Below are positions 8,656 through 48,774 of a stretch of 64,000 bases of DNA, piece after piece (position 1 is the first letter of the stretch; each line of letters begins with the position of its first letter). The position numbers and the translations under genes are program-made. A model generated the notes under the pieces. It saw nothing but the letters and a program-made list of their open reading frames with translations. It made no database searches and was not told where the DNA came from. The DNA is from an uncultured bacterium. GTDB taxonomy: Bacteria > Omnitrophota > Omnitrophia > Omnitrophales > Aquincolibacteriaceae. Location: assembly GCA_964385615.1 (NCBI GenBank), contig CAYLPP010000014.1, forward strand, positions 3,836 to 67,835, written 5' to 3'.

Positions 8656-8656
8656 A

Positions 8657-10830: not shown

Positions 10831-10898
10831 AACCGTCTTTTAAAAGTTAGAGTGCGACTAGATTAAATTACGGAAAGACAGACGGATTGCGTCTAGGA

Positions 10899-11189: not shown

Positions 11190-11276
11190 GTAAGGAATGT
11201 TACCATCCCTTTAACCCACCGTCAATCACATCAAAATCTTTCTCCCATCTCTTATTTTTAATAATCGGAGTGATTT

Positions 11277-11295
11277 CGGCAGACACTGTCTGCCG
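11277..11295. promoter_or_regulatory. Perfect 9-1-9 palindrome CGGCAGACA-C-TGTCTGCCG, 55 bp upstream of the sigma-like ORF
   Basis: Read directly from the DNA. Candidate operator or recombinase-binding site. Confidence 0.4.
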
Positions 11296-11349
11296 AATCC
11301 TCGCACAAGAAACCTTCAAAAGGGCCGACAAATATCCGTTAAATTTGAT

Positions 11350-11769: not shown

Positions 11770-11848
11770 GATCTATTTGGGAATAAGGGCTTTCCCATGA
11801 ACAGGGATTGCTCTTCCTTTTTATCCTGAAATTAGCTATTATTTAGTC

Positions 11849-13567: not shown

Positions 13568-13613
13568 ACAGACAGATCCAGAATCTGTCGTGCTACCGTT
13601 ACACCATCCCCCA
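13540..13613 (-). tRNA. tRNA-Gln(CUG)
   Basis: A manual fold of the reverse complement gives UGGGGGA as the acceptor stem. The D-arm is GUGUAACGGUAGCAC and the anticodon loop is UUCUGGA, giving anticodon CUG. The T-arm is GGUUCGAAUCC, the 3' end is UCCCCCA-G-CCA, and CCA is encoded. Confidence 0.85.
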
Positions 13614-26300: not shown

Positions 26301-28924
26301 GATAACTCTTTTTCCCTGGAAGCCAAATCAAGTTCCTTGCGGTTTAATTCTCCCCTCGCGTCTTCAAGCTGAAGCTTAAGAGCTTCCGCTTGTTGTTTTT
26401 CCTGATTCAAGGATTCCCGCTTGCCCAGCCATTCCTTTTTCTCAAACGCAAATGCCTTCCTCCCCGCTTCAAACTCCGACTCCCGCTTATCCAAATTTAA
26501 TTGTCTATTCTTGAGCTGATCTTCCAAAACGGTCAAGGACTGCTGTTTCTGTTCCAACGCGGCCTTGTCGCCATCCAGCTGTTTTTGGAGCTCTTCGAAC
26601 TTCTGTTTTTCTCCTGAAAAACTCGATTGTTTTTCCATCCAGATTTTTTTATTGTCCGCAAGTTCTTTACGCTCAGCTTCCAAATCACTCGCTGTTTTTT
26701 CCAGCTCCTGCTTGCGCTGAACAAAATCCTGCCGCTCCGCTTCCAGATCGGCTTTTAACCGCTCAATCTCAGCCTTCTGATTTTCCATCTGCCGGCTGGT
26801 CAGGGTAACGTCTTTTTGCTTTTCAATAAAAGCTTCTTCCTTGCGGAGAGCGTTAGCCTGACGGTCCTCAAGATGCTGTTTAAAGGCGGCCAGCTCCTGC
26901 TTGTTTTTCTCCAGCTCTGCTTTTTCTTTCTCAAAACTCTGGAGCTCTGACTCAAACTGCCTGCGGTCTTCCTGAAACCGTGTGATTTCTTTCCGCTGGT
27001 CTTCTTTTTCAGCATTAAACTTTTCACGTTCCTGACGGATAGCCGCGGAAGCTTCCTTCTGCTTTTCGACATCCGCCTGTATCCGGGCACTTAATTTCTG
27101 CTGATTCTGCTCCTGAAGCATTTTTGCCTGTTCCAGCTCTGATTTTAAATTCTCAAGCTCGCCGGCCATCCGCTGTTTTTCAGCTTTAAGAGTTTCAAGC
27201 TCCGCCTGACGGTCCGCTTCTTTTTGCTGTGAAATCTCAAGCGTTTCCTGGAGTTTCCCCTGAAGGGAGGACTGACTGCGGGCAAGTTCGCTTTTAAGCG
27301 ACGCGACTTGCTTTTCCAGAACCGCTTTACCGGATTCCATATCCTGCAGACTCGCCTGAAGATCCGCGTCACGTTGTTGGGAGGCTTCAAGAGCTTCTGC
27401 CGCGCCGGCTCTCAGCTCTTCATTTTTCTTTTTAAGCTCCGCATTCAGCAAACGCAAATCTTCAAGCTGTTGAGCCGCCTTATCCTTGGAAACGGCCGCT
27501 TCTTTCAGCTGGCGGTTTTCATCCGTTAATTTTTGAACCTCGGAAATTAAATCCGTCTGCTGATTGCCGATCATTTCTTTCTCAGTTTTAAGACGGGTCA
27601 AACCCGCGTTCAGCTCGGCAAGCTGAGCCTTGAGGGTTTTAATTTCATCTTTTGCCGCGGCGTCCATATCCGCACTTTGTTTTTGCAGTTCATTTTTCTT
27701 TTGGCTTTCCCACGACTGTTTTTCCTGAGCGAAAATCTCACGGGCATTTAAAAGCGCCTGGCGGGATTTCTCTATCTCGCTCTTTTCGTCCAAAACCTTC
27801 CGTTCAAGCTGTTTTTGCCCGTTAACCGCTTCTTCCCTGACCGTTAGCTCTTTTTCCCTCTTATCAAGGCTTTCAAGGCGGGCTTCAAGCGCCTGCTCTT
27901 TTTGCGCCAATTCCGATTCCCGCGCGGTATTCTGGGCTTCCAGAGTTTTAAGGGTCTGTTCCTTTTCACCCTGCCCGGCCTGAACCGCCTGACGCGCTTG
28001 CTCCAGCTCCCCTGTTTTTTCTTCAAGCTGGCGGGTTTTTGCTTCAAGATCTTTTTCCCGCGTCGAGGCTTCCAACTTCAGCCTTTCCTTCTCTTTTTCA
28101 AGACCGGCAATCCGGCTTTCCAGATCTTTCACGGCCTCAGGCAACTTGGTATCCGGCTTAGGCGCGGCATCGATCTGCTTCTTTTGTGAAGCAAGACTGT
28201 CCAACAGGGAGGCGCGTTCTTTATCCCAATCCTGCCTTGCTTTTTCAAACTCGGCCTGTTTCTCCATAAGAAAATCTTTTCCGGACTCAACGGCACCCTT
28301 GGGAGGAGCTCCTCCGCTCTTCATACCCCGCTGAGCCTCAAGGTCCTGACTCAACTTTTGCATTTCAAAAGCTTTCTTCTGTTCCGTTAACTCTCCCTGC
28401 TGTTTTTCAAGATCTTTCAGCTTCTCCATCCACATCTTCTTAAACTGCTCACCGGAAACCATTTTCTGTTTCAAGTCCTGTTCCCAACGGGCCAGCGCCT
28501 GGCCTTTCGCCGTCAATTCCTTGTCTTTTTCAGAAAGTCTTTCAGAACGGCCCGCCTTCTGTCTCTTTTCAAGATCCTCAATCTTCTTCTTTTGGAAAAG
28601 AATCTCTTCGTCTTTCCGGTGAAGTTCTTCCAGAATCTGCGCCGTCGATTCAGGAACATCAGGCTTAAGTTCGCGCTTTTCAATATCCCAGGCTTTTTTA
28701 CGGATTTCAAAGTCCTGAATCTTCTGAAGAAGGCCTTGCTTGATTTTTTCGAGCTGTTCCTCTTTTTTATCGAGAAACGCCATCTGCTTGTCGCGTTCTT
28801 TTTGCCATTGCTGTTTCTGCTTTAAAAAATCAGAGGTGGATGAGGAATCCTGATCGGCCGCGTAAACGAAGGGCGCGGCGGAAGATGCGGCGTTTATGAG
28901 GGCTAAAAAGAAAAAAAGCCCCAT
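23399..28924 (-). CDS. Giant secreted coiled-coil protein (~1,840 aa; E/K/Q/A/L/R-rich)
   Basis: This is the long ORF 23399..29137. I moved its start to the ATG at 28924 (MGLFFFLALINAASSAAPFVYA|ADQD, a signal peptide), because the upstream 71 codons would overlap the tRNA-Arg region. Apart from the signal peptide the product is almost pure heptad-like charged repeat. Confidence 0.75.
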   Translation of the reverse strand: MGLFFFLALINAASSAAPFVYAADQDSSSTSDFLKQKQQWQKERDKQMAFLDKKEEQLEKIKQGLLQKIQDFEIRKKAWDIEKRELKPDVPESTAQILEELHRKDEEILFQKKKIEDLEKRQKAGRSERLSEKDKELTAKGQALARWEQDLKQKMVSGEQFKKMWMEKLKDLEKQQGELTEQKKAFEMQKLSQDLEAQRGMKSGGAPPKGAVESGKDFLMEKQAEFEKARQDWDKERASLLDSLASQKKQIDAAPKPDTKLPEAVKDLESRIAGLEKEKERLKLEASTREKDLEAKTRQLEEKTGELEQARQAVQAGQGEKEQTLKTLEAQNTARESELAQKEQALEARLESLDKREKELTVREEAVNGQKQLERKVLDEKSEIEKSRQALLNAREIFAQEKQSWESQKKNELQKQSADMDAAAKDEIKTLKAQLAELNAGLTRLKTEKEMIGNQQTDLISEVQKLTDENRQLKEAAVSKDKAAQQLEDLRLLNAELKKKNEELRAGAAEALEASQQRDADLQASLQDMESGKAVLEKQVASLKSELARSQSSLQGKLQETLEISQQKEADRQAELETLKAEKQRMAGELENLKSELEQAKMLQEQNQQKLSARIQADVEKQKEASAAIRQEREKFNAEKEDQRKEITRFQEDRRQFESELQSFEKEKAELEKNKQELAAFKQHLEDRQANALRKEEAFIEKQKDVTLTSRQMENQKAEIERLKADLEAERQDFVQRKQELEKTASDLEAERKELADNKKIWMEKQSSFSGEKQKFEELQKQLDGDKAALEQKQQSLTVLEDQLKNRQLNLDKRESEFEAGRKAFAFEKKEWLGKRESLNQEKQQAEALKLQLEDARGELNRKELDLASREKELSDRAAAFESEVKARSQEQTVLEASRKKIGEEETALQEKTQVFESLQREFEARRTDFEKQKSGLESERAALEAEKAGIERMRKQAEDETSAARSRIDRDLGEYQKKIEALKKREEESIKDQEILQSRQAQVEEKQARLEKLSSSVEAGKMKIKDEKTQLENLRDELVQEKTAFQTDRDRWAQSVEEMKKRQQAFEEEKTAFGRKISAYENDKLAWTKARDLQEADFAARNSSLQDKERDLEVRLGKLLPLKEKLAQERKALDQRQKDMEARESAVSAQTAELERGRDQLDAAQKKWELELSGRKEEFASQKQDLANLKLSLDQRTQGLADQDKELAASRAQLSDDKLHWNEEKRAWQNEKSGEEARLGALDAQLQERQKTVTDKEARLSGLQKELSQAKADLLLERKKLETEKTQFEKMRSEWEAKMTDSRNLIAADQASLAERIRSFEAEEAAFKVGTLKLSQDQTIWEEQKKAQALEMAGREQAVSELKTSLESRQEALNVRESALNQKARAVSDEKKQLGEERRVLDADKQAFDLKSSELKSLLDQDRKRFENEKLLAETRIKDQTQSLDLRSKDLEQREAVLSTGQKKLESETLMLKEAKSQLSSRQDQLLQEQAKFKNQQAALERDKSLYEKQLTEFNQLRTAWEAEKTELKNKLDSEKQLVSAAEKAVSERETKASRLENENAQVKKALEEKEQAFTAEKQAWVQERSAKESAMQQAQTFLTQNAQSLDARNLELDQRQTALDSKAGDLETARKKLGEQADEFEKRRAALETQNAVYLQNVETFNASRQAWEKDRLASEQSLEQNLKALELAKAKIEQEKNKSAEEKRNYDNAISHSREELERNFASLTGRENQLSALQTQIQGEWAALRKSEADLESAKRAAQDGLQKEQGRLTEWEARLSRQDYQLQEKQRVLDARELQVRRRESQWLPAQSPTEQMVMEEAQRSGIERAVPAPAPKLKN

Positions 28925-29110
28925 TGAAAAATGGAGCTTACTCTTTTTGTAGTCAGTGTTTGTGATAATTTTAAATCCTCTCCCCGAAGGATGCTTCATA
29001 CTAGTACAGGGATTATAGGAAGTCAACGCTGTATAGGAGGGCAAAAATGCCTGACCGTAGACGGTATTCCTTAAACCGTCACGGATCAGGTATTTGCATT
29101 TGGATGCAAA

Positions 29111-29183
29111 TGCCCCGGGCCGGAATTGAACCAGCAACCTTATCCTTAGGACGGATCTGCTCTATCCAATTGAGCTACCGGGG
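29111..29183 (-). tRNA. tRNA-Arg(CCU)
   Basis: A manual fold of the reverse complement gives acceptor GCCCCGG/CCGGGGC. The D-arm is GCUCAAUUGGAUAGAGC and the anticodon loop is GUCCUAA, giving anticodon CCU. The T-arm is GCUGG-UUCAAUU-CCGGC, the discriminator is A, and CCA is not encoded. Confidence 0.8.
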
Positions 29184-36951: not shown

Positions 36952-39900
36952 TTAGGCTGAAGCCCCTGTGAGTTCCTGGGCGCGGAGGTAACGGCCCAGC
37001 GTTTCAGAAAGCAGGCTTTGTGCCGTAGGCGTCACAAGCCCGGCGCGGGAAATGTACTCAATACCGACTTTACCCAAAAATTCCGCCATGCGCTGAGTGT
37101 ATTCCTTAACGTGAACCACATCCCCCAGATCACGCTTGAGCTGGACCGCGGCCAAAAGCTGAAGCTGGGTCAGTTGATTCATATATTTAAAGGAAGAGGC
37201 CGGATCCATTTTTTCCAGAACCGCCGGATCGATCAAAAAAGAAGGCAGATGATAAAGGTCTTTGATATTTTCCGGCGCGGATGTCACGGAAACGGAAATA
37301 GCGTCTTTGGAACGGCGTCCGGCAGCCAGAACTTCATCCTGCTGAATAATTTCAAAAACTTTGGAGGCCGGACGGCCCTTGACCCATCGCGCGAGTTCTT
37401 CGGCTCCGCGCCCCGCGAAGTAAACCGCCTTCCCCGCCGGGCTTCCACTCTGCTGGAAACCCTCTTCAAGAAGGTCGAGGTACTGGCTGCGCGCGTCTTC
37501 GGGAATATTCAAAAGCAGTTTCGCCGGAAGCACCGCCGAAGCACCGGCCTTGAAAAGCTTCGAATATCCGGAGGCAAGCTCCGAACGGTCTTCCCCTTGA
37601 ATGAAAATCTCCGTTTTACTTTCCGGGAACATGACACCGTACAACTCGCGCATCACGTCAAGCCCCAGAATTTTCGCGGTCGTCTTTGCGGCAACTTCCA
37701 AAGCCGCGGCTCTCGACTCAGACCGGGCGGACGGCACTTCACCGGAAGATTGCTCGCCCATAATCACCGGTAAAATATCTCCGGCAAAACGCTCAAATTC
37801 CGCCGGTTCAGTCCACTTATGCACCTGCCGGATCTCGCGAATCGGCAGCTCAAGCCGCTGCGGATCAAAACTCTTTATGGTTTGCTTCACGTAAGCATAA
37901 AAATGGTTTCTAACCCAGAAATTCTCATCGCTGTGTTGTTCAATAACCGTCCGCACCGGCCCTAACTGAAAAACCGGGTCTACCGGGAATCTCGCGTCTT
38001 CCCCTCCATAAGCGCGGGCACGCAATCCCTCCACCCTGCCGGCAGGCCCCGCGTATAAATACCCGGGAATCCACAGGACAATCACTTCGTCATCCGCGCT
38101 GAATTTCAACCGTCCGCCGGAAACTTTCGTGAACGCATAAGCAAGAGAACTCTTGCCGGACCTTGATACTCCCGAAAGAATGACCGCGTCTCCCTTCTGA
38201 TTGAATAGAATGTCCGAATGGACAATTTCCATCTTTAGCTGCGCCACGATCTCCGGATATTCTTTACGAATCTTATCCATCCAGCCGGTGACAGCTTCTT
38301 TTAACGCGCCGTTCTCGATACTTCCGGGATTTCCGTCATATAAACCGTTCAGGATTGAATGCACGTATCCCCGATACTGTGTAAATTCAGGACGGCTGAG
38401 AATCTCATAAATCTCTCCGGCTTCCCTAAAAAAAGCATCCGCCCTGCCGGCGGAAATCACGTCAGCCTTCGCGCGCAATTCAGCGCGCGCAGGCGGGTAT
38501 ATTTTCTCAAAAGCGGAAAGCATTTCACCGGCATCTTTATAAAGCCGGTCATCCGGGTTTTCCTTCAGCGCGCCCGCGATAATTTCTGAAAGTTTCTTCA
38601 ATTTATCTTTCGAAATAGCCGCTTCGATCTGCACCTGGTTAGGAAAACTTTCATAAAAGCGGGGAATATCCGCAACGCGGACATCCTCAATCAGCTGATG
38701 CCCTGTCGCTAACTGATAAAGAACAAGCCCCAGGACAAAAACATCCGCGCGGGGATTCACAACCCACACCCCTCGGGTCATTTCAGGCGCTAAATAATCC
38801 AACGTCCCGCGAATAACCTCGTCCGCGGCCATCCCAGGATATAAACTTAGTATCCGGCCTTGTACCTGCGAGAGATTAAAATCAATCAGCTTAAGAGAGC
38901 CGTTTCCGGTAACCATAAAATTGGCCGGCTTCAGATCCCGGTGAACAATTCCCCGAAGATGCGCTTCATGAACCGCCTTCAGAATATTTCTCACGATTTC
39001 AATCAATTTTTCCTCAGTAACCGGATTCAAGTAAAGCCAGTCGAGAAGCGTTTTCCCATCTATGTATTCCATTCCTATAAAAGGAACGGGCACCGTGTCA
39101 TCCGCTTGCGAGGGATACACCTTGACCGCGAACGGATTCTCGCGCCCATTAAAAGGAGCCGCGTAGAGTTCCATCGCTTTACGTTCAAGTTCCGCCATTT
39201 CACGGTAATACCCGCCACTATTTGTATAAATTTTCAGCGCCGCGGTTTTACTTGGATCTGATTTTTCCGTAACCTTATGCACTGTGCCGATACCACCGTC
39301 ACCGCCGATCACACCCCCGGCCTCAAAATCCCGCCCGCCAAACCGGACGTCCGTCCTCAGCTCAGACCTTTTTTGCGTTTCGATTTCAGATAAATGAACG
39401 CGCGCGTATTTTTCAAAATCACCGGGATCCACCATGGACTCATTAACCATCGTGACAGTCCACGGCTCAAGAGCGGTTCCTTCATACCCCGGGAAAATAC
39501 CGGCCATGTACTGTTTCAAATGGCTTTCTCCGGGATTCCTAATAGGCATTTTAAAAGGACCTCCGGAAAGCCGAAACTCCGCTCTCACCAGCCCCACGCC
39601 TAAATAAGATTGATAAGGTATATTATTTTCAGAGTCGTAAGCCCTGGCCCTGAGATTCTCAAAAGAATAAGCGGATCCCGCCAGCAAATGGCCTGGAATG
39701 CGGATCAGATTAATATCATCCGCGGACGCGATTTTAACCCGCCCGTTGGAGACACGGCTGAAAGCGTATCCAAGCGACCCTTTCCCCGATTCACTTTCTC
39801 CGAATAAAAGAACGGCTTCGTTGTTTTCGTTAAAAAGAAGATCGCCGTACATCCGGAAGCTCCGCATGAACGGAACGATATCAGGAAATCTTCCGGAAAT

Positions 39901-42900
39901 TTCCGCGTACCATTTTTGAATTTCTTTTTGAAGTTCCGGATTTTTTTTAAACGCGTAATTATTCTGAGGCAGCCCGTAAATAAAAGACGGCGCCATGTGC
40001 AGAAAGCCGCGGAATTCGGGCCGGTTCAAAATTTCATAAATCCCTTCCAGCGCCTTGGAAAATTCCCTGGCCCTTTCTTCAGTCACCGGCGGAGCTTCAA
40101 TTTTTTTCTCGGCGGAACCGGCGCGCGATTCGGAGCGCGGAGAAACCGTCGTCCTTTCGAAGGGAATGCGCACTGTAATCCGGGTACCCGGCACAAAAGT
40201 CATCAAGGAGGCCGCCTGCTCAAACTCGCCGTCCGCGTTGCGCCGCCAAATCCCTTCTCCCGTAACGATCTCGACAAAATTTCCCACAGTGGAAAGTTTG
40301 CGAAACCCATTGCCCCCATACCATTTCCTCTGGCTTCGTTGCCTCACAACCTCCGGATCTCCGAGACCGTAGCCATTGTCCCAAGCCGTGATTTCCACAA
40401 CAGGCCCGCCTTCCTGCTCAATAACTTTAAAACCCACGGCTCCGCCAAAAGCGTATTCGAGCATATTAAAAATCAATTCATGAATGACTCGGGCCCCGAT
40501 CAGCCATTCCTGGCCAAGCACCTGCTGTTCAAGCCGGTACGCGTCAGAAATAACTGAGAAATAAGGCCCCGTTAAAGCCCGGGAATAAATCGGCAGAGCC
40601 TGATAACCTTCAGCGGTCAAAGCCGCGGCTTTCGGCTCGGCCATCAGCCGCCAACGCTCCGTTTCTTCCGAATCGATCGAACGGAGTTCCGATCTTTTTT
40701 TGACCCATCGTTCTTCATAATATTTTTGAAGCGCTGAGTCCCACTCCCGGACCGTGGAAAACCTTTGCTTGCCGAGCTCGTTTAAATTGGAAAAACGTTC
40801 GTTTACCACTCTAAAAATATCCATTGCGTCCAGTAAACCTGTCGGAGAACTCATGGAGGAAACAGCCCGCGCCAGCAAGGACGCTGAGATAAATCCGGAA
40901 ATCGCTTCACGGTCAGACGTGTACTCATCGCTAAAATCAATAAGGACCGGCTGGTTTTCTTTTGTAATAATGACGTTTCGAGGCTGTAAATCGCCATGCT
41001 CCAGCCCTTCAGCTTCCATAAGCTCCACCGCTTTACCAATCCGCAAAGTCCATTCAACAATCTGCTTTTCAAATTCCTCATCGCTCAAACTTTTCGCGGT
41101 GTAAGCCCACCGTTCCAGATTTTCCCCTTCCGCGTAAAGCCGTTCATACTTCCCGCCCTTTTTCTTCCGGATTCTGGGAAAAACGGGGTTGTCCTGATGC
41201 TTCAAAAGAAAATTGACGATAGGTTTATCCCAATTAATCGGAACCCAGTTCTCTTCCGCGGTGCGTATTTCAGAACGGGCCATGGCGCGCCAGGCCTCAA
41301 ATAATTCCGCGGGATTCGCGTAACGTTCGGCAGGATTAGCGCGGACCGCTTTGGCAATCACAGGCGCGAATTTTTCCCATTCCTTTTCCGCATTCTCTTC
41401 CCGCAAGCGCTGAATTATTTCTGAAGGCGTAAAATTCCTGGAAAGCTTTTCAGCCCGAAGCACTTTTGGGCTGAGTGTTTTAAAAAGCCGGTTCCCGGCA
41501 GCGAGCCAGAAAAGAAGGAGTCCCAGGCTGTAAACTTCCGTTTGCGGTTCCAAAGTACCCGCCGGAGCTTCAGGCGCCGCGAACTGGTCCGTGAAACCCT
41601 TATTCTTACGATTTTGTCCGGCGGGCAGTGCCAGACCAAAATCAATAACCGCGGGCTTGTTTTGAGAAGTCATAATAATATTTTGAGGTTTGATGTCGCC
41701 ATGAAGCACTCCGGCGCGGTAAATTGCCGAATGAGCCGCGAGAATATCTTCAGCGGCTTTTTTTAGATCCACAAAACTTTTTCCTTCTCTCCAGCTGTTA
41801 AGCGGCTGACCTTCCGCAAAATCCATAACCAGAGCCGTATCGCCGTTAATTTCATCATCTCTTTGCGTGACCCGGCCAACACCCAGAACATCAGGCACGA
41901 ATTCCGGGGAAGCTTCATGGGCTTGCTTCATCAGATTAAATTCTTCTTCTTGCGCCTCGAAAGAAATTCCGGAATAGGTGTCATAAACTTTCAAGGCTGT
42001 CTCCCGCCCGCTCACAGTGTCGCGGCCGCGGTAAACCCCGGACAACCCGCCGCCAAACGACTCGCCTCCCGCTTTCGATTCATAAACTCTGCCGGCCAAC
42101 ATGACTTGAACGCGGGACTCAGACCGGGAAATAGCTGCCCGGAACGAGCGGAACATTTCTTCAGCGTCAGCATAACGGGCTGAAGGATCAGGATTGATAG
42201 CCCGGGCAATGACTTTGGCAGCGGGGCCCCAGACATCCAACGCTTCCGTGCTTAAGTCTGAGAGCGCCCTGCGGATCTCCGCCGTGCCGGGAGACTGATT
42301 TTTTTCAATTTTGAGCTTTTCCAAATAGAGAAGCGAGTTAAAATCGCCGTCGCTCGGACTCGAAAAAGGCGGCTTGTGCAAAGCCATCCAGTAAAGAATA
42401 ACGCCAAGGCTGTACACATCAATCCGCGGAGTCAGGACGCCAGAACCTTGAAGCGCTTCCGGCGCGGCAAAAAGGTAGGTCCCCTTAACCCGTGAAAGCG
42501 GTTTCCCGATTCTGCTTCCGAAACGAGCCACGCCAAAATCCAGAATTTTAACTCCGGTATCCGTAATATAAATATTCGCGGGCTTCAGGTCCTGATGCAC
42601 AATTTCAGGATGCAGAGAGGCCGCGGCTTCAAGAACGGAAAGGGCCTGCTCCAACACTTGGGGAGCATCCTTACCCTTCACCCAAGCCGCGAGATCCTGC
42701 CCTTCCAAAAATTCCATGACGATAGACGGCATAGGATCTTCAGGACCGTCAATATGCCCCCACCCAATCACCGCGGGCACATGCTCTTTATCCTTCCGGG
42801 CATATTCAATCAAAGCTCTGTATTCGTTTTTGCTGGCAGCTTCACGGTTCACATATCTGTAAATCTTAACTGCTACCGGATTAGAAGATCCGCCGTCATC

Positions 42901-45900
42901 CTTGTGGGCTTTAAAAACCCAGGCATAACCGCCGGCGCCGGCCAAACTATCCACGGAATACTGCGTCCCGTTGACTGTTAATTTTTTCCCGACAAAAAGC
43001 GACGGGTCATTCAAGGCTTTCGGCCTCAGCTCTTCAGACGCCGCCTGTTCGAGTACCGTTAAAAATTCTTCCGCGTTCCGGTAACGCTTTTCCGGAGCAA
43101 CATCCAGCGCCTTACGCAGGGCCGGAATAAAAGAATGCCAAGTTTCCGGCAAACGCGACGCAAGTTCCTCTTCCGTGACCTGGCGGTTATGTTCCGCTAT
43201 GTAATCCACCGGATTTCCCGCCTGAAAAAGCTTCTGCCCGGAAGCGAGTTCAAAAAGAACTTCGGCCAGCATATAAACATCCGTGGACGGTTCATAAGGC
43301 CCGCTGCCCCTTGTGAAAATTTCAGGAGCCATGTAGGCGGGTGTTCCGGTAATTTTCCAGGAAGCTTTAACCGGCATTGTCTTTGTGCCGATCTGAGAGG
43401 TCATGAAATCCAGTATTTTCACCTTCCCGGCGGGAGTCACCAAAAAATTCCAGGGTTTAATATCCAGATGCACCACAGGCTCATTGAGCATATGCAAAGA
43501 AGCAACCGCCCTGGCGGTTTTCAAAGCAACGCGGATTTTTTCCGCGTCCGGCTTCCCTTCAGCCCACGCGGCCAGAGTTTCCCCCTGAATATATTCCATT
43601 GCGATCGCGGAATATCCGTTACCGCTGTCAAGACCAGCACCATAAAATTCAGGCACATACAAATTACTAGCTGACGCGGCTTGCATAACTTTGACTTCGT
43701 GGGAGACCAGAGAGCGGAGAAATTCAGGATCGTTTAAAAGATGCGACGGGATGATTTTGACGGCAATATCCGGTTGACCGGAAGCTGAGGCCAGATAGAC
43801 CTCTCCTCCCGCACCGCTGTCAAGAAACCGGGTCAATGTATAAACTTTACTACCGAATCTTTTAAGTTCGATTTTTTTTCCTAAATAGGCAGGCGCAGGG
43901 GTTGTCGCCCGGACCTCAGAGCGCACAGGCGGAGAAAAAACATCCGGGGGAAGTTCCGCGCTGAGAACCTCCAGCAATTCTCCGGCATCCTGAAAACGCT
44001 TTTTCGGATCCGGATCAAGCGCCTTACGCAAAATTTTACCGACCTTCTCTTTAAGCTCTTTTTCCAGAGGAAGCCGGTCTTCAAGATCCGCTTGAGGCAG
44101 CGGTTTTTTACGCTCCTGCCCCAGCTTGGCGTATTGCCCTTCCCGTTCTTGTTCCGGCGTCAGAGCAAACAGCCTTTGCCCGGTCAAAACCTCAAAAATA
44201 CTCGCGCCAAGAAGGTAAACGTCCGTTGCCGGAGTGTAAGGCCCGGTTCCATTAAAAAACATTTCCGGCGCCATGTAGGCGGGCGTTCCGCGGACATCCG
44301 TGTTCCGCTCCGAAGGCGCGGGCTTCCTGCCGATCTGACTGTAAGTAAAATCCAGAATCTTAACTTTCCCCGCGGCCGTAACAAACAGATTGGAGGGTTT
44401 TAAATCCAGATGAACCACTTTGTTTCGATGCATCATCGAAGCCGCGCGGACAACATTCACTGACATCGAAAGTTTTTGCGGTAAGGAAGCGTTCTCTTCC
44501 GCCCACTTTTTCAGACTTTCGCCCTCCAAAAACTCCATGGCGATTAATGAAAAAGAGTCCTGGGAAAAGCCAATTTTGGATCCATAAAACATGGGAACAT
44601 ATTCATTGTCTTTTCCCGCGGCCCGGAGCGCCTGAACTTCATGCTTAATCTGACTCTCTCTCAAAGCGCGCCGGCGGCGGCCTTGATCGCTGAAAACCTT
44701 AACGGCTATCGAAGGAAATCGAGCGGGGTCCACGGAAACGGGAACCGCGCGGTAAACACGGCCGTTCCCTTCTTTGTCCAGCATGGACTCCAAACGGTAC
44801 TTCGCTGAGCGAGTATGAACAATAACACCCAAAAAGCCGGAGTGACGCTTCCAGAGCTGCACTCTGCTTTTCTGAAGTGTTCCCGCGGGCCATTCGATAA
44901 AACCTTGTTTAGGATGCCGGTATTGAAAACCGGTTGGCGTCCGCTGGCGCAGAATCGCGCGGGAAACATCAATCCGGGTTCCCCCTCCGCTGGCTTCTAT
45001 AAGCGTTTGGGCCAACTGCATCAACGCTTTGCCGATTCCCTCGACTAACTCTAAGTCGCTGATATGAACCACCATCCCGGGGCTGCCGGATTCTAATCCC
45101 GGAATTTCCGAAACCCACGGGAAAGGACCTGCCCACTTTTCTCCCTCCGGGTCAATTTGCGCGGAGTAGGTATTGTCCTTATTCCTTTTCATGAGGATAT
45201 CGATAAACCCGGCCGGATTTCGCCCTCCATCGGCAGTCCGCCGGAAAGCCGTTACACGAAACGCGATTTCGGGGGGTTTCTGTCCGGCAGGAATATCCGC
45301 AGGAACCGGTCTTTGCTTCCAGCTGAATCCATAAAAAATCCGGTAGGGCTCTTCAACTTTCCGAATTTGTCCGCCGGCCGAAACCGCGGTTGAAGTGTCC
45401 GCTTCTTTTTCCTTCGCGGCAACCACCATGGGGCGAGTCATTCTTTCCTGGCGGGTGCTCCTCAAATCCGTGTTGAACCTGTTGGCTTTTAAAATCTGCC
45501 ACCAGACATCTTTAATTTCACTTTCAATTTCAATAATTTTCGCGGCTTCCGCGGATTTCGCGGGATAAGCGGCGGCAATCACCTGCAGTTTCAGGCAAAT
45601 ATCCGGAAGAGCTCCATCCATCCAGAATAAAATCCCGCCCCATCCCGCTTTGATGCCGGCAGGCGTGCGGTAAATCCCCTGAGTAGTCCGCTGGGAGTTC
45701 CGGAAAGCAAAACCCGCGTAGGTTGTATCCAGAAAACGGCCGAATTCCTTTTCAAATTCCTGAATGTTTCCCCGGCGAAGATGAAGATAAAGAATTTGCT
45801 GCTGAACCTGCATGGGGAAAAACCCCACTCCGTCAACCTTTTGAAGCGCTTTCAAAAGCAAAAGCACGCGGTCATAAATTCTGTCAGCCTGAAATTTATC

Positions 45901-48774
45901 CCCCGAACTTTGATAAAAAAAAGCGATCTCGCTCAGCTCATTGATGTAGCCGGAAATCTCCGCGCGGATATCGGGCATAAACACAGGCTTTTTCTCCGCC
46001 TCCGCCAGCCGAAGATTAAAAGCTTCACGGCTTTCATAACCGGTAATTCCCAGCCCTTGATAAATAGCCCACTCCTGATCCGTAGCTTGCGCCATCTCTC
46101 TGAGTGTTTCAAGTTCCGGATATTTCAGAAGCCTCATTTTTTCATCCGCCTGCTTGGAAGCGAGATTAATCAGTCCCGGATTTTCGCCGGAGTCGCCGTA
46201 AAGCATATCGTCGAGCTCCCCGTGCGGAATTTCGGAAATATCCTTCCCCTGATACTCCGCTTTTTGAGGCCCGAGATCCTGCCAGTTTTTCTCGTCGTAG
46301 ATTCGGATAATCCGGGAAGTTTCATACATCAGCTCGTCCCTGCGGGCTTCTACCGACGCGCGTTTTGAGGCTTTATTTGTTTTCTCAGCATTCCGGACAA
46401 ACGCGATTCTCTTGAGAATACTGGAAGCATCCGCAAGCGAAGAGGCCGCCCTCGGTGCCGGTAAACCGGCACCGCCCGCGTAAAGATCATCTCCCGCCAT
46501 CCGGAGATGCGTTCTCCAGTGGTAACTTGTTTTTCTTTTTTGGAGATCCTCGTAAATTTCCCCAAAAATCTCGGGTAAAAGCCCGCGATTCTCATTTTCA
46601 TACGTCATCGATTCAACTTCACTGTGGTAAGCCAGCATTAAATCCGCCGCACGCATCAGATACAAGCCAACCAGCGCCTGATCAATTTTAGAATCCGGAT
46701 TAAGCATTTTTAGAAATTCCATTGAAAAAAGGATGGCGTTGCGCCGGTAGGAAACCTGGAGGGTTTTCTCAAAAAGATCGTCCGGCCTGTCGTCCTCATA
46801 AAACAGAACCGTCGGGAGCTGCATGGCCAGAATAAAAACATTTTTCCTGAGCCACTCAAGCGTGGATTTATGCGATTCTTGAACGGCCGTTTCAAGATAA
46901 GCCAGGGCGTGTTCAATCATTCTTTCCGGCTGAGCTTTCCTCCCGCCTTCTTCAGGCAAAACGCCTGGGTCGGATTCCAACGGATCATTCTCATAGTACG
47001 CTTCGGAATTTAACGCGGGCGGAGGGCTGTAAAGGCGGTAGCGATTTTTAACATTGATCGAAAGAGGAAGCATTTTCCCCCCGTAATCAGGCAAAAGATG
47101 TTCCGCGGATCCGTCTTTATGGGCCGAGCGCAATTCTGCCCGGGCGGGTGAAGCCCCTTTGGAAATTCCATAATCGGTAATTTGTCTTCGAATTTCCGCG
47201 CGCGCGGTTTGAAGCGCTGACGGCCAGGCTTCATCGTCCATCATCCACTGCGGAACGCGGACGGCGGACGCCCCAAAATCGAGTTTGCGGTTTTTTCCGT
47301 TCATCGCGTCGCCGTATTTGCGGGAATCCTCGATCTGACTCAAATGGGGCATGATCACGGCGTAAGAAATTTTCCGCTCCCGGAATTGCCTGCAGAGACC
47401 TTCAGTGTGAAAACCGCCCGCGATCACGGCCGCGGGTTTCTTATCCCCGGCCAGAAGGCTTAAAATTTCGCGCCCCATGGTTTCATCACGCTGATTTGCC
47501 AGATCGTAAAACCTGGATGCTTTTCCGTAAACTTCGCGGAGATCCGCCGGCAGAACGGTTTCAAGGCCGGTTCTCGAATCTTGATTCCAAAGTCGGTATT
47601 CCGCAGATGTCACTGAAAGCGAAAGGATTTTCCGAAGTTTCAGCCACTGTCTGAATTTCTCGAGAAGCGCCTGAGCCCGGCTTTCCGAGGCCAGCTTTTG
47701 AAGAACCTGCTCCCGTAATTTTTCCATTTCTTCCATCAGGACACGGGCTTCAATCTCTCCGCTCAAAATCTGAAATCCTTCAAAAACAAAAAAATCAGGA
47801 TACTCTTCAAAGCGGAATCCTTTAGAAGAGGCCTGGCTGTAAAAGCGTTCCCAGGATTCCCGGAGCCCGGATGTTTCCGGGATTCCGCCGTTTTCTTTTT
47901 GAAGCGGAAGTATTTTCTCCATCTTGTTCTTTGCGGCCCACGCCGAAAGTTTTTCTTTCTGCGTTTCCGCCTTCTTGGCGTTTATCAGGGGCTGACGCCG
48001 TTTCAGCTCAAAAAAACGGACCAGCATCGGCCACTCTAACTGCGCGCGCGCATTCCCTAAATCCAACTGAAGAATTTTCTGGGCCTGCCCTTCAAGTTCC
48101 GATAGATAAACCGGAAGCGGAATTTTTTCGTCTTCGAAACCCGACCATATCCGAAAAAATTCAAAAAGCTCTTTTGAAAAAACCCGGGAAGCTTCCTTAC
48201 TGATTTCAGAAAACTTCTTTTCAAGGCCCGCGCTTATCCGGTCTTTTTGAGAGGATATTTCCTGATAGAGCTGAAAGTTTTCAAGATAAAGCGGAAGGTC
48301 TTCAGTACCGTAAGCCGTCACAAACTCGCGGTTCCGAAGCGTGAACCTCTCGGCACCGCCGATTTCAGCTTCACGCATCAGCGTACCGGCAATTTCAAGA
48401 TTCAGCGCGCCGTTATCAAAAAAGGTCAGGCGTGAGGGATCAAGCCGTCCGGCACCTCCCTCAATAAAAAGAGAGTTTAATCCGCGGTTGGCTTTTAAAA
48501 ATTCCAACAAGCCGTCGGTACTTTTCTGCGCTTCATACTGCCCATGCGCGTCAGGAATGATAAAAAGAGAAGGATTTTCCCCGAAAGTTTCCATCAAGGT
48601 TCCAAGTTCAGGCGGGATGGCTGGAGAGTTTTCAGAGGTTTTGACCTCTCCCAGAGGACGGTCGAAAAGGATTTCCGGAGCAGTCCAAGCGGGTTGACTG
48701 CCGACATAAAAAAGGAGCGTAAAAAAAGCAACGCCCCGCCGAAAGCTAAAATAACGTAAGTGGTTGATTTTCAT
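36952..48774 (-). CDS. Giant 3,940-aa multi-kinase protein. It has a signal peptide or signal anchor and a ~1,300-aa unknown N-region. It contains 6 Hanks-type Ser/Thr kinase domains, a GHKL ATPase domain, 2 HprK/P-like P-loop modules and a 340-aa unknown C-region
   Basis: It is one uninterrupted ORF. The kinase catalytic loops and DFG-type motifs read from the translation are HLDLKPSN/DFT, HLDIKPWN/DFM, HQDLKPAN/DFG, HGDIKPQN/DFG, HGDLQPRN/DFS and HRDLKPAN/DFN. The VAIK-type lysines are IAVKVF, IAVKII, VAVKIY, TALKVY and AALKIY. APE motifs are present. The GHKL motifs are NMLEYAFGG…ITAWDNGYGLG. The HprK-like Walker A and downstream motifs are GESESGKGSLGYAF…ASADD and GVSRSGKSSLAYAF…SADDE. 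I verified codon positions for HRD (38941-38943) and DNG (40369-40377) on the DNA. Confidence 0.85.
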   Translation of the reverse strand: MKINHLRYFSFRRGVAFFTLLFYVGSQPAWTAPEILFDRPLGEVKTSENSPAIPPELGTLMETFGENPSLFIIPDAHGQYEAQKSTDGLLEFLKANRGLNSLFIEGGAGRLDPSRLTFFDNGALNLEIAGTLMREAEIGGAERFTLRNREFVTAYGTEDLPLYLENFQLYQEISSQKDRISAGLEKKFSEISKEASRVFSKELFEFFRIWSGFEDEKIPLPVYLSELEGQAQKILQLDLGNARAQLEWPMLVRFFELKRRQPLINAKKAETQKEKLSAWAAKNKMEKILPLQKENGGIPETSGLRESWERFYSQASSKGFRFEEYPDFFVFEGFQILSGEIEARVLMEEMEKLREQVLQKLASESRAQALLEKFRQWLKLRKILSLSVTSAEYRLWNQDSRTGLETVLPADLREVYGKASRFYDLANQRDETMGREILSLLAGDKKPAAVIAGGFHTEGLCRQFRERKISYAVIMPHLSQIEDSRKYGDAMNGKNRKLDFGASAVRVPQWMMDDEAWPSALQTARAEIRRQITDYGISKGASPARAELRSAHKDGSAEHLLPDYGGKMLPLSINVKNRYRLYSPPPALNSEAYYENDPLESDPGVLPEEGGRKAQPERMIEHALAYLETAVQESHKSTLEWLRKNVFILAMQLPTVLFYEDDRPDDLFEKTLQVSYRRNAILFSMEFLKMLNPDSKIDQALVGLYLMRAADLMLAYHSEVESMTYENENRGLLPEIFGEIYEDLQKRKTSYHWRTHLRMAGDDLYAGGAGLPAPRAASSLADASSILKRIAFVRNAEKTNKASKRASVEARRDELMYETSRIIRIYDEKNWQDLGPQKAEYQGKDISEIPHGELDDMLYGDSGENPGLINLASKQADEKMRLLKYPELETLREMAQATDQEWAIYQGLGITGYESREAFNLRLAEAEKKPVFMPDIRAEISGYINELSEIAFFYQSSGDKFQADRIYDRVLLLLKALQKVDGVGFFPMQVQQQILYLHLRRGNIQEFEKEFGRFLDTTYAGFAFRNSQRTTQGIYRTPAGIKAGWGGILFWMDGALPDICLKLQVIAAAYPAKSAEAAKIIEIESEIKDVWWQILKANRFNTDLRSTRQERMTRPMVVAAKEKEADTSTAVSAGGQIRKVEEPYRIFYGFSWKQRPVPADIPAGQKPPEIAFRVTAFRRTADGGRNPAGFIDILMKRNKDNTYSAQIDPEGEKWAGPFPWVSEIPGLESGSPGMVVHISDLELVEGIGKALMQLAQTLIEASGGGTRIDVSRAILRQRTPTGFQYRHPKQGFIEWPAGTLQKSRVQLWKRHSGFLGVIVHTRSAKYRLESMLDKEGNGRVYRAVPVSVDPARFPSIAVKVFSDQGRRRRALRESQIKHEVQALRAAGKDNEYVPMFYGSKIGFSQDSFSLIAMEFLEGESLKKWAEENASLPQKLSMSVNVVRAASMMHRNKVVHLDLKPSNLFVTAAGKVKILDFTYSQIGRKPAPSERNTDVRGTPAYMAPEMFFNGTGPYTPATDVYLLGASIFEVLTGQRLFALTPEQEREGQYAKLGQERKKPLPQADLEDRLPLEKELKEKVGKILRKALDPDPKKRFQDAGELLEVLSAELPPDVFSPPVRSEVRATTPAPAYLGKKIELKRFGSKVYTLTRFLDSGAGGEVYLASASGQPDIAVKIIPSHLLNDPEFLRSLVSHEVKVMQAASASNLYVPEFYGAGLDSGNGYSAIAMEYIQGETLAAWAEGKPDAEKIRVALKTARAVASLHMLNEPVVHLDIKPWNFLVTPAGKVKILDFMTSQIGTKTMPVKASWKITGTPAYMAPEIFTRGSGPYEPSTDVYMLAEVLFELASGQKLFQAGNPVDYIAEHNRQVTEEELASRLPETWHSFIPALRKALDVAPEKRYRNAEEFLTVLEQAASEELRPKALNDPSLFVGKKLTVNGTQYSVDSLAGAGGYAWVFKAHKDDGGSSNPVAVKIYRYVNREAASKNEYRALIEYARKDKEHVPAVIGWGHIDGPEDPMPSIVMEFLEGQDLAAWVKGKDAPQVLEQALSVLEAAASLHPEIVHQDLKPANIYITDTGVKILDFGVARFGSRIGKPLSRVKGTYLFAAPEALQGSGVLTPRIDVYSLGVILYWMALHKPPFSSPSDGDFNSLLYLEKLKIEKNQSPGTAEIRRALSDLSTEALDVWGPAAKVIARAINPDPSARYADAEEMFRSFRAAISRSESRVQVMLAGRVYESKAGGESFGGGLSGVYRGRDTVSGRETALKVYDTYSGISFEAQEEEFNLMKQAHEASPEFVPDVLGVGRVTQRDDEINGDTALVMDFAEGQPLNSWREGKSFVDLKKAAEDILAAHSAIYRAGVLHGDIKPQNIIMTSQNKPAVIDFGLALPAGQNRKNKGFTDQFAAPEAPAGTLEPQTEVYSLGLLLFWLAAGNRLFKTLSPKVLRAEKLSRNFTPSEIIQRLREENAEKEWEKFAPVIAKAVRANPAERYANPAELFEAWRAMARSEIRTAEENWVPINWDKPIVNFLLKHQDNPVFPRIRKKKGGKYERLYAEGENLERWAYTAKSLSDEEFEKQIVEWTLRIGKAVELMEAEGLEHGDLQPRNVIITKENQPVLIDFSDEYTSDREAISGFISASLLARAVSSMSSPTGLLDAMDIFRVVNERFSNLNELGKQRFSTVREWDSALQKYYEERWVKKRSELRSIDSEETERWRLMAEPKAAALTAEGYQALPIYSRALTGPYFSVISDAYRLEQQVLGQEWLIGARVIHELIFNMLEYAFGGAVGFKVIEQEGGPVVEITAWDNGYGLGDPEVVRQRSQRKWYGGNGFRKLSTVGNFVEIVTGEGIWRRNADGEFEQAASLMTFVPGTRITVRIPFERTTVSPRSESRAGSAEKKIEAPPVTEERAREFSKALEGIYEILNRPEFRGFLHMAPSFIYGLPQNNYAFKKNPELQKEIQKWYAEISGRFPDIVPFMRSFRMYGDLLFNENNEAVLLFGESESGKGSLGYAFSRVSNGRVKIASADDINLIRIPGHLLAGSAYSFENLRARAYDSENNIPYQSYLGVGLVRAEFRLSGGPFKMPIRNPGESHLKQYMAGIFPGYEGTALEPWTVTMVNESMVDPGDFEKYARVHLSEIETQKRSELRTDVRFGGRDFEAGGVIGGDGGIGTVHKVTEKSDPSKTAALKIYTNSGGYYREMAELERKAMELYAAPFNGRENPFAVKVYPSQADDTVPVPFIGMEYIDGKTLLDWLYLNPVTEEKLIEIVRNILKAVHEAHLRGIVHRDLKPANFMVTGNGSLKLIDFNLSQVQGRILSLYPGMAADEVIRGTLDYLAPEMTRGVWVVNPRADVFVLGLVLYQLATGHQLIEDVRVADIPRFYESFPNQVQIEAAISKDKLKKLSEIIAGALKENPDDRLYKDAGEMLSAFEKIYPPARAELRAKADVISAGRADAFFREAGEIYEILSRPEFTQYRGYVHSILNGLYDGNPGSIENGALKEAVTGWMDKIRKEYPEIVAQLKMEIVHSDILFNQKGDAVILSGVSRSGKSSLAYAFTKVSGGRLKFSADDEVIVLWIPGYLYAGPAGRVEGLRARAYGGEDARFPVDPVFQLGPVRTVIEQHSDENFWVRNHFYAYVKQTIKSFDPQRLELPIREIRQVHKWTEPAEFERFAGDILPVIMGEQSSGEVPSARSESRAAALEVAAKTTAKILGLDVMRELYGVMFPESKTEIFIQGEDRSELASGYSKLFKAGASAVLPAKLLLNIPEDARSQYLDLLEEGFQQSGSPAGKAVYFAGRGAEELARWVKGRPASKVFEIIQQDEVLAAGRRSKDAISVSVTSAPENIKDLYHLPSFLIDPAVLEKMDPASSFKYMNQLTQLQLLAAVQLKRDLGDVVHVKEYTQRMAEFLGKVGIEYISRAGLVTPTAQSLLSETLGRYLRAQELTGASA

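What the first reader, a model, noticed from the sequence alone, without database searches (positions are those of the whole stretch)
40135..40512. Embedded GHKL (anti-sigma RsbW/SpoIIAB-like) ATPase domain
The N-box-like stretch is ELIFNMLEYAFGG. The G1 box is ITAWDNGYGLG (DNG codons at 40369-40377), and a G2-like stretch is GGNGFRKL. In bacteria this fold provides serine kinases that phosphorylate anti-anti-sigma factors. Here it sits between the Hanks-kinase array and the first HprK-like module. It adds a third mechanistically distinct phosphotransfer fold to one polypeptide.
Basis: partly seen in the sequence, partly recalled or inferred. Interest (0 to 1): 0.7.

Follow-up and report, generated by a model that had tools for sequence, protein, structure and literature searches.

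The report
Anti-sigma-type ATPase module in giant protein
A 181-residue stretch of a 3,940-residue exported multi-kinase protein from an Omnitrophota bacterium is a real but very divergent relative of the SpoIIAB/RsbW anti-sigma serine kinases, found without its usual partner domain.

Summary
The three peptides lie on the minus strand in one 3,940-aa ORF (36952-48774). The DNG codons are 3 nt off the stated position, and the domain starts about 55 residues further upstream than flagged.

Routine annotation barely sees it. A whole-protein Pfam scan gives no HATPase_c hit. The isolated segment scores 24.5 bits against a cutoff of 26.4.

Deeper tests agree that it is a GHKL domain of the SpoIIAB/RsbW lineage:
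- 17 homologues, all in 1.5-7.1 kaa proteins, keep the N-box Glu and Asn and the G1, G2 and G3 glycines invariant.
- The family profile hits SpoIIAB first in the PDB (E 2e-7).
- hhalign against ordinary RsbW-like proteins gives 98.7% probability.

The module is a discrete unit bounded by R-[SA]-E-x-R linker motifs, conserved one-to-one in two orthologues, and present once per protein. No STAS partner was found. The "HprK-like" label on the neighbouring modules could not be verified.

The most likely role is an ATP-dependent Ser/Thr kinase or partner-binding module, with an unknown target. This is a new variant of a known kind and of moderate interest. The linker motif may be the more novel feature.

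The parts
36952..48774 (-). Giant ORF, 3,940 aa. From the N terminus it has a signal-like segment, a conserved N-terminal domain, four Hanks-type kinase modules, one degenerate kinase-like module, the GHKL module, a P-loop module, a sixth kinase, a second P-loop module and a conserved C-terminal domain.
   Evidence: ORF list and translation. Six Pkinase stretches. Self-BLAST architecture. Identical to database protein P0001, which comes from a 69-kb NCBI contig. A syntenic orthologue, P0002, exists.
40138..40680 (-). The GHKL (SpoIIAB/RsbW-like) module, aa 2699-2879. Order of elements: N-terminal helix, beta1, alpha1, N-box helix, beta-hairpin, G1, short ATP lid, G2, beta-sheet, G3.
40441..40482 (-). 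N box, HELIFNMLEYAFGG (aa 2765-2778). E2766 and N2770 are invariant in the family. The Asn is the GHKL Mg2+ ligand.
   Evidence: Invariant columns E68 and N72 of alignment A1. They align to the SpoIIAB 'SEAVTNAIIHG' segment. Coordinates.
40351..40383 (-). G1 box, WDNGYGLGDPE (aa 2798-2808). W2798, D2799 and G2803 are invariant and G2801 is nearly invariant. The Asp is the adenine-binding residue of GHKL proteins.
   Evidence: A1 columns W100, D101 and G105 are invariant and G103 is at least 90% conserved. They align to SpoIIAB 'RDEGVGIPD'. Coordinates.
40303..40317 (-). G2 box, GGNGF (aa 2820-2824), at the end of a short ATP lid of about 16 residues (aa 2804-2819) between the G1 and G2 boxes, as in SpoIIAB and unlike histidine kinases.
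   Evidence: A1 column G125 is invariant and G123 is at least 90% conserved. Aligned to SpoIIAB 'SGMGF'. Coordinates.
40171..40191 (-). G3 box, PGTRITV (aa 2862-2868). G2863 is invariant.
   Evidence: A1 invariant column G165 and consensus 'GTRIT'. Coordinates.
40681..40695 (-). Upstream linker motif RSELR (aa 2694-2698), which separates the degenerate kinase-like module from the GHKL module.
   Evidence: Motif positions. Enrichment is 11 observed against 0.23 expected. The same motif precedes the module in P0002 and P0003.
40123..40137 (-). Downstream linker motif RSESR (aa 2880-2884), which separates the GHKL module from the first P-loop module.
   Evidence: In P0002, P0003, P0005 and P0006 the GHKL module likewise ends directly at an R[SA]ExR motif; in P0011 and P0013 the next motif lies 15-27 residues further on.
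48679..48774 (-). N-terminal signal-peptide-like segment MKINHLRYFSFRRGVAFFTLLFYVGSQPAWTA. It has a basic n-region, a 12-residue hydrophobic core and an AxA-like end.
   Evidence: Read directly from the sequence. There is no other hydrophobic stretch of TM strength in the 3,940 aa. Homologues P0002, P0003, P0004, P0010 and P0011 have similar N termini. No dedicated predictor was available.

Best explanation
The flagged stretch is the core of a self-contained 181-residue module (aa 2699-2879). It has the Bergerat ATP-binding fold of the GHKL superfamily and belongs to the SpoIIAB/RsbW (Pfam HATPase_c_2) lineage of anti-sigma serine kinases. It is one bead in a 3,940-aa protein of an Omnitrophota bacterium. 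That protein has a signal peptide, no membrane helices, and modules separated by R-[SA]-E-x-R linker motifs.

Shown:
- The fold and subfamily.
- Strict conservation of the Mg2+-ligand Asn, the N-box Glu, the adenine-binding Asp and the glycine loops.
- One-to-one conservation of the module in orthologues.
- A single copy per protein.

Inferred:
- The module binds Mg-ATP. Like SpoIIAB, RsbW and SiaB, it uses ATP either to phosphorylate a Ser/Thr of a protein partner or to hold that partner in a nucleotide-dependent way.
- The partner is not a canonical STAS domain in cis or encoded nearby, so the target is unknown.
- The protein looks exported and also carries six Hanks-type kinase modules. The target may therefore lie outside the producer's cytoplasm, for example in a host or prey cell. 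The module may act after release at the linkers. These last steps are speculation.
For: Sequence:
- Pfam HATPase_c matches the isolated segment over nearly the whole profile at E 3.8e-5.
- An exhaustive HMMER search of 1.84 billion representative proteins finds 17 homologues besides the protein itself, 16 of them carrying the module, all in 1.5-7.1 kaa proteins.
- Their alignment has E2766, N2770, W2798-D2799, G2803, G2823 and G2863 invariant (G2801 and G2821 at least 90% conserved), at 24-59% overall identity to the window copy.
- The family profile ranks SpoIIAB first in the PDB at E 2.2e-7, with all motifs aligned.
- 12 of 16 members hit HATPase_c_2. 5 of 16 hit NCBIfam RsbA_anti_sig and 1 hits spIIAB.
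- The profile retrieves ordinary 133-137 aa RsbW-like proteins and RsbW-PP2C fusions. hhalign to these gives 98.7% probability at E 2.8e-16.

Structure:
- The AF2 model has pLDDT 88.9.
- In Foldseek the top hits are SpoIIAB and every listed hit is a GHKL protein.

Modularity:
- Linker motifs flank the module.
- The orthologous modules are 186, 186 and 188 aa in P0001, P0002 and P0003, while neighbouring modules differ.
- There is one copy per protein.

Context:
- The ORF is syntenic in a second genome.
- The taxon is Omnitrophota, from GlyQ hits.
- The N terminus is signal-like and there is no TM helix.
Against: - The window copy is below Pfam's gathering score (24.5 against 26.4 bits). It is not reported in a whole-protein scan.
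- The closest orthologues, P0002 and P0003, have no Pfam hit at all. Only 1 of 10 other members tested passes the HATPase_c_2 cutoff.
- No STAS substrate was found. Pfam finds none in any part of the protein. A STAS HMM built from verified SpoIIAA seeds finds none in the window's six-frame ORFs or in 27 related proteins. That HMM has limited reach.
- No PP2C phosphatase module is present in this protein.
- If the protein is exported, ATP would be lacking unless it acts inside another cell.
- Kinase activity, as opposed to ATP binding alone, cannot be read from the sequence.
Confidence: 0.6

Rival explanations
1. The module is a nucleotide-dependent binding or sequestering module with no kinase output. 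It would act like the anti-sigma half of SpoIIAB/RsbW, clamping a sigma-like or other partner. That partner could be another module of the same class of giant proteins.
For: SpoIIAB and RsbW are both anti-sigma binders and kinases (established knowledge). Three other giant proteins that carry this module also carry sigma-70-like modules. P0013 has Sigma70_r2 at 32.6 bits, above the cutoff, plus r4 at 21.3 bits. P0008 has r2 at 23.1 bits. P0005 has r4 at 21.1 bits. No STAS substrate was found.
Against: The window protein and its orthologue P0002 have no sigma-like module. Two of the three sigma hits are below threshold. How often sigma modules occur in such giant proteins generally is unknown. 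Invariance of the N-box Glu fits catalysis as well as binding. The rpoD gene four genes downstream is ordinary housekeeping synteny.
Confidence: 0.2
2. The module is a catalytically dead relic of a GHKL domain, kept only as a structural spacer in a giant scaffold protein.
For: It scores below Pfam thresholds. It lacks the usual partners. It sits among many unrelated modules.
Against: The residues that stay invariant across homologues of only 24-59% identity are exactly the nucleotide-binding ones: E, N, D and the G1, G2 and G3 glycines. A spacer would not preserve these. The module is kept one-to-one in orthologues while its neighbours are shuffled.
Confidence: 0.08
3. The module is the catalytic (CA) domain of a histidine kinase, or an Hsp90/MutL/GyrB-type ATPase, rather than an RsbW-type module.
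For: The only Pfam hit of the window copy is the general HATPase_c model. The profile gives weak C-terminal matches to Hsp90/TRAP1 at E about 1e-3. NCBIfam gives a weak HrmK hit.
Confidence: 0.04
4. The three motifs are a chance resemblance in a long protein.
For: The whole-protein Pfam scan is negative. Single-sequence PDB and word-index searches are negative. The single-sequence AF2 model is poor, at pLDDT 42.
Against: Profile and structure evidence is strong and mutually consistent.
Confidence: 0.01

Closest known systems
SpoIIAB, the anti-sigma F factor and serine kinase of Bacillus (PDB 1L0O, 1TH8, 1TID, 1TIL)
   Different: Identity is only about 19-20%. The module has an extra N-terminal helix (aa 2702-2721) and family-specific invariant Trp residues (W2798, W2843). 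It is embedded in a 3,940-aa signal-peptide protein, not a free 146-aa cytoplasmic protein. No SpoIIAA-type STAS partner, sigma factor gene pairing or SpoIIE phosphatase is associated with it.
RsbW-type kinases, including fused ones: B. subtilis RsbW (6M36), M. tuberculosis UsfX (8IH8), the RsbW domain of the multidomain protein Rv1364c (3KE6), and P. aeruginosa SiaB (6KKO)
   Different: Rv1364c carries its own PP2C and STAS domains in cis. This protein carries neither. Its companions are six Hanks-type kinase modules and two P-loop modules.
HATPase_c domains reported in Omnitrophota giant proteins (West-Roberts et al. 2023, bioRxiv 10.1101/2023.11.21.568195; bioRxiv 10.64898/2026.06.07.730766)
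   Same: The phylum is the same, and so is the phenomenon of very long multi-enzyme proteins. Both papers list HATPase_c (PF02518) among the frequent domains of such proteins.
   Different: Those counts rest on Pfam hits. This clade mostly falls below Pfam thresholds, so it would largely be missed. Those papers do not describe an RsbW/SpoIIAB-type assignment, a multi-Hanks-kinase protein, or the R[SA]ExR linker motif, judging by term searches. At 3,940 aa this protein is also below their 'giant' size classes.

Membership tests
GHKL superfamily (Bergerat ATP-binding fold) | Motif I, the N box, with the Mg2+-ligand Asn (E-x3-N) | tested here: met
   HELIFN contains E2766 and N2770. Both are invariant in 16 homologues and align to the SpoIIAB N box.
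GHKL superfamily (Bergerat ATP-binding fold) | Motif II (G1, D-x-G-x-G), motif III (G2, G-x-G-F) and motif IV (G3, G-T) | tested here: met
   The motifs are WDNGYG, GGNGF and PGTRI. D2799, G2803, G2823 and G2863 are invariant and G2801 and G2821 are at least 90% conserved.
GHKL superfamily (Bergerat ATP-binding fold) | Alpha/beta sandwich fold matching solved GHKL structures | tested here: met
Pfam HATPase_c (PF02518) | Score at or above the curated gathering threshold (26.4 bits) | tested here: not met
   The isolated segment scores 24.5 bits at E 3.8e-5. The whole-protein scan gives no hit at E<=1.
Pfam HATPase_c_2 (PF13581; RsbW/SpoIIAB-like) | Score at or above the gathering threshold (27.4 bits) | tested here: inconclusive
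   The window copy has no hit at E<=0.1. 12 of 16 family members hit at E<=0.1. Of the 10 other members whose bit scores were examined, only one exceeds the cutoff, P0016's module at 31.7 bits. Profile-profile homology to bona fide PF13581 proteins is strong, at 98.7% probability and E 2.8e-16.
SpoIIAB/RsbW partner-switching anti-sigma kinases | Closer in structure to SpoIIAB and RsbW than to other GHKL classes, with a short ATP lid and no DHp or transducer domain | tested here: met
SpoIIAB/RsbW partner-switching anti-sigma kinases | A cognate STAS-domain antagonist (SpoIIAA or RsbV type) as substrate, encoded in cis or nearby | tested here: not met
   Pfam finds no STAS in the whole protein or in its unassigned segments. 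An HMM built from three PDB-verified SpoIIAA sequences plus a recalled RsbV sequence finds nothing significant in the window's six-frame ORFs of 60 aa or more, or in P0002-P0028; the best score is 9 bits. Sensitivity is limited. Only 64 kb of the genome was visible.
SpoIIAB/RsbW partner-switching anti-sigma kinases | Binds and inhibits a sigma factor | not testable with these tools
   An rpoD-type gene lies four genes downstream, but it is part of conserved housekeeping synteny. Sigma-70-like modules occur in some other giant proteins that carry the module. None occurs in this protein.
SpoIIAB/RsbW partner-switching anti-sigma kinases | Ser/Thr protein kinase activity | not testable with these tools
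   Only the conservation of nucleotide-binding and N-box residues can be shown.
Histidine kinase CA domain | An adjacent DHp/HisKA domain with a phospho-accepting His, plus an F box and a long ATP lid | tested here: not met

The most novel reading that the evidence does not exclude
The giant protein may be a bacterial polyprotein. The R-[SA]-E-x-R pentapeptides at every module boundary would be processing sites. The conserved N-terminal ChaN/Tiki-superfamily-like domain is a candidate protease. After export, cleavage would release a set of free enzymes, including a stand-alone-sized (about 181 aa) SpoIIAB-like kinase and six Hanks-type kinases, which would then act on proteins of a host or prey cell. 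The GHKL module, present exactly once in each such protein whatever the other cargo, could alternatively be a core 'chassis' component of this protein class rather than cargo.
Probability: 0.15. Interest if true: 0.85.

Novelty: new variant of a known kind. Interest (0 to 1): 0.5.

Why it matters
RsbW/SpoIIAB-type GHKL kinases are known as small cytoplasmic partner-switch regulators, always paired with a STAS antagonist. This one differs in four respects:
- It is a divergent clade found only inside very long proteins. All 18 hits among 1.84 billion representative proteins are 1.5-7.1 kaa.
- It occurs once per protein.
- It has no STAS or PP2C partner.
- In this case it sits in a protein that looks exported and also carries six eukaryote-like kinases.

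If the module is active, the partner-switch kinase fold has been recruited for a different job, perhaps manipulating another cell. Such a role would fit the proposed predatory or parasitic lifestyle of Omnitrophota.

There is also a practical lesson. Standard Pfam annotation of giant proteins misses this module. The whole-protein scan is negative and the orthologues have no hit. Domain censuses of Omnitrophota giant proteins therefore under-count it.

The linker motif seen along the way gives a simple rule for cutting these proteins into modules. It also gives a testable hypothesis of proteolytic processing.

Tried and rejected
Searches that found nothing:
- Single-sequence searches were uninformative: PDB phmmer, the word-index homologue search and NCBIfam.
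- AF2 without an alignment gave pLDDT 42.
- I looked for the genome and for related loci. The look-up of encoding contigs found nothing for the window protein. A peptide-pattern scan of GTDB genomes gave no confirmed relative. An exact 38-mer scan gave no match. The search for related loci with the alignment failed for lack of a conserved stretch. Taxonomy was obtained instead from GlyQ homologue names.
- The afdb50 fold library was unavailable.
- The STAS partner search was negative.
- The test of the neighbouring P-loop modules as HprK-like was negative. Pfam gave only weak CPT and AAA_29 P-loop hits. A three-sequence profile and a single core sequence gave no HprK hit in the PDB. That label stays unverified.
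- A literature string search for the linker motif returned only unrelated matches. A search for Omnitrophota multi-kinase giant proteins found no paper.

Ideas considered and rejected:
- A DNA-level origin of the linker motif. Codons differ between sites.
- The plus-strand ORF 39916-40557 as a gene. It is a shadow of the conserved minus-strand ORF.
Full report
**1. The observation**

The flagged coordinates lie inside one uninterrupted minus-strand ORF, 36952-48774, of 3,940 aa. Read on that strand, 40135-40512 is in frame and encodes aa 2755-2880.

The three quoted peptides are all present:
- ELIFNMLEYAFGG at aa 2766-2778
- ITAWDNGYGLG at aa 2795-2805
- GGNGFRKL at aa 2820-2827

The plus-strand reading belongs to a shadow ORF, 39916-40557.

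**2. Whether it is a GHKL domain**

Routine annotation nearly misses it.
- hmmscan of the whole protein lists six Pkinase stretches but no HATPase_c at E<=1.
- The isolated segment hits HATPase_c across profile positions 8-110 of 111 at E 3.8e-5. Its 24.5 bits fall below the 26.4-bit gathering score.
- Single-sequence PDB, NCBIfam and word-index searches were empty or uninformative.
- AF2 without an alignment was poor, at pLDDT 42.

An exhaustive HMMER search of 1.84 billion representative proteins found 18 proteins. One is the window protein itself (P0001, identical). One more (P0017) matches only a short repeated peptide and does not carry the module. All 18 are 1.5-7.1 kaa long.

I aligned the 16 distinct module sequences as alignment A1. 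Overall identity to the window copy is 24-59%. The invariant columns are the GHKL nucleotide-binding residues:
- the N-box E2766 and N2770
- the G1-box W2798-D2799 and G2803 (G2801 at least 90% conserved)
- the G2-box G2823 (G2821 at least 90% conserved)
- the G3-box G2863

Profile evidence agrees.
- The A1 profile ranks SpoIIAB (1TID, 1TIL, 1TH8, 1L0O) first in the PDB at E 2.2e-7, with every motif in register.
- 12 of 16 members hit Pfam HATPase_c_2 and 7 hit HATPase_c.
- 5 hit NCBIfam RsbA_anti_sig and 1 hits spIIAB.
- The profile pulls ordinary 133-137-aa HATPase_c_2 proteins and RsbW-PP2C fusions out of 5.8 billion sequences.
- hhalign of A1 against those proteins gives 98.7% probability at E 2.8e-16.

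Structure evidence agrees as well.
- With A1 as input, AF2 gives pLDDT 88.9 and pTM 0.86.
- Foldseek puts SpoIIAB first, and every listed hit is a GHKL protein.

The domain starts at aa 2699, about 55 residues upstream of the flagged start. The extra part comprises a family-specific N-terminal helix plus the beta1 and alpha1 elements that SpoIIAB also has.

**3. Anatomy and context**

GlyQ homologues with names are almost all "Candidatus Omnitrophica/Omnitrophota bacterium", at up to 89% identity. The neighbouring genes are housekeeping: comEC and an HTH-cupin gene upstream, and glyQ, glyS, ppdK, rpoD and a PRTase downstream. The same gene order surrounds the 4,507-aa orthologue P0002 in another metagenome.

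Self-BLAST and Pfam give this layout:

| Residues | Module |
|---|---|
| N terminus | signal-like segment |
| to ~540 | conserved domain with a weak ChaN/Tiki-superfamily hit |
| ~550-1310 | unassigned |
| 1314-2495 | four Hanks-type kinase modules |
| 2505-2698 | degenerate kinase-like module |
| 2699-2879 | GHKL module |
| 2885-3140 | P-loop module |
| 3141-3434 | sixth kinase |
| 3435-3688 | second P-loop module |
| 3689-3940 | conserved C-terminal domain |

There is no hydrophobic stretch of TM strength apart from the 12-residue core of the N-terminal signal-like segment. The protein is therefore probably exported. This is an inference, because no dedicated predictor was available.

The pentapeptide R-[SA]-E-x-R occurs 11 times, against 0.23 expected from shuffles with a maximum of 2. 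Nine copies sit at module boundaries. RSELR lies directly before the GHKL module and RSESR directly after it. The motif is similarly enriched in P0002-P0006, P0011 and P0013. Its fourth residue is lineage-specific. It is encoded by varying codons, so selection acts on the peptide.

Cutting at these motifs shows the GHKL module as a one-to-one orthologous unit of 186, 186 and 188 aa in P0001, P0002 and P0003. Module number and order otherwise differ. Each homologous giant protein has exactly one copy.

**4. Partners**

Pfam finds no STAS or PP2C module in the protein or in its unassigned parts. I built a STAS HMM from SpoIIAA sequences that I recalled and then verified against the PDB. It finds nothing significant in the window's six-frame ORFs or in the related proteins. 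This is a limited-sensitivity negative result, restricted to 64 kb of the genome.

Other giant proteins carrying the module hold very varied cargo: GNAT, His_Phos_1, Rce1-like, M23 peptidase and aldose epimerase. Three carry sigma-70-like modules:
- P0013, r2 at 32.6 bits, above the cutoff
- P0008, r2 at 23.1 bits
- P0005, r4 at 21.1 bits

This is a hint of an anti-sigma-like pairing elsewhere in the family. It does not apply to this protein.

The neighbouring P-loop modules have a Walker A motif. They gave no HprK match by Pfam or by PDB profile and sequence searches. The Hanks and GHKL folds are confirmed and the HprK-like fold is not.

**5. Mechanism**

The best-supported reading is a Mg-ATP-binding module of the SpoIIAB/RsbW type. 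It would phosphorylate, or hold in a nucleotide-dependent manner, a protein partner that is not a canonical cis or neighbouring STAS domain.

The signal peptide and the six eukaryote-like kinase modules suggest action outside the producer's cytoplasm. The linkers suggest possible release as a free protein of about 181 aa. Both ideas are inferences.

**6. Comparison and novelty**

Two preprints on Omnitrophota giant proteins list HATPase_c among frequent domains. From term searches, they do not describe an RsbW-type assignment, multi-kinase proteins or the linker motif. String and topic searches found nothing else.

This clade mostly falls below Pfam thresholds. The orthologues P0002 and P0003 have no hit, and only 1 of 10 other members tested passes the cutoff. 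It would be missed by such censuses.

I rate it a new variant of a known kind. The fold and lineage are known. The clade is divergent, restricted to giant proteins and partner-less, and it sits in a new architectural setting.

Interest is moderate, at 0.5. The domain identity is not surprising for multidomain signalling proteins. The context and the linker or polyprotein hypothesis are worth following.

Noticed in passing
Window 36952-48774 (-); motif at aa 525, 545, 1618, 2217, 2500, 2694, 2880, 3064, 3136, 3430, 3684: The pentapeptide R-[SA]-E-x-R marks nearly every module boundary of the giant protein. There are 11 copies against 0.23 expected by shuffling. It is equally enriched in P0002-P0006, P0011 and P0013, with a lineage-specific fourth residue (RAEVR, RSEVR, RSELR, RSEMR). 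Codons vary between sites, so it is a peptide-level signal. It may be a protease processing site. String searches did not find it in the literature.
   Followed up: partly
Window 47155-48774 (-) (aa 1-540) and 36955-37708 (-) (aa 3689-3940): The N- and C-terminal modules are conserved as end-caps in P0001, P0002 and P0003 (40-65% identity), while the internal modules differ in number and order. The N-terminal domain follows a signal-like segment and has a weak ChaN/Tiki-superfamily hit (PF04187, E 1.3e-3). The C termini of many family members end in small residues (…SASA, …ARASA, …GSSA, …IAA).
   Followed up: partly
Related proteins P0013 (aa 1673-1888), P0008 (around aa 6184) and P0005 (aa 1229-1279): Some other giant proteins that carry the SpoIIAB-like module also contain sigma-70-like modules. 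The Sigma70_r2 hit is 32.6 bits in P0013 and 23.1 bits in P0008. The r4 hit is 21.1 bits in P0005. This is a possible anti-sigma/sigma pairing inside giant proteins.
   Followed up: partly
Window 39355-40122 (-) (aa 2885-3140) and 37711-38472 (-) (aa 3435-3688): There are two paralogous P-loop modules, 36-42% identical, with Walker A motifs GESESGKGS and GVSRSGKSS. Pfam gives only weak CPT and AAA_29 hits, and PDB profile and sequence searches give no HprK match.
   Followed up: partly
Window 40681-41262 (-) (aa 2505-2698): The module just upstream of the GHKL module is a short, degenerate kinase-like unit with an HGDLQPRN…IDFSDE core. It hits APH, RIO1 and Pkinase only weakly, yet it is the best-conserved internal module in P0002 (68% identity) and is 56% identical in P0003.
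   Followed up: no
Window 36952-48774 (-): A methodological point. hmmscan of the full 3,940-aa protein reports no HATPase_c at E<=1, whereas the same segment scanned alone gives E 3.8e-5. Domain censuses of very long proteins can lose weak domains in this way.
   Followed up: yes
Window 23399-29137 (-): A second long ORF of 1,912 aa has no Pfam family at E<=0.001. It lies in a region of strongly negative AT skew, down to -0.32. The P0002 locus has a similarly placed ORF of more than 1,885 aa.
   Followed up: no
Window 1-13613: This is a lower-GC block, 0.43-0.46 against about 0.51 elsewhere. It carries an AcrB-type efflux pump (5575-8655) and ends with a large serine recombinase gene (11849-13567, +) that abuts or overlaps tRNA-Gln (13540-13613, -). 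It may be an integrated element.
   Followed up: no
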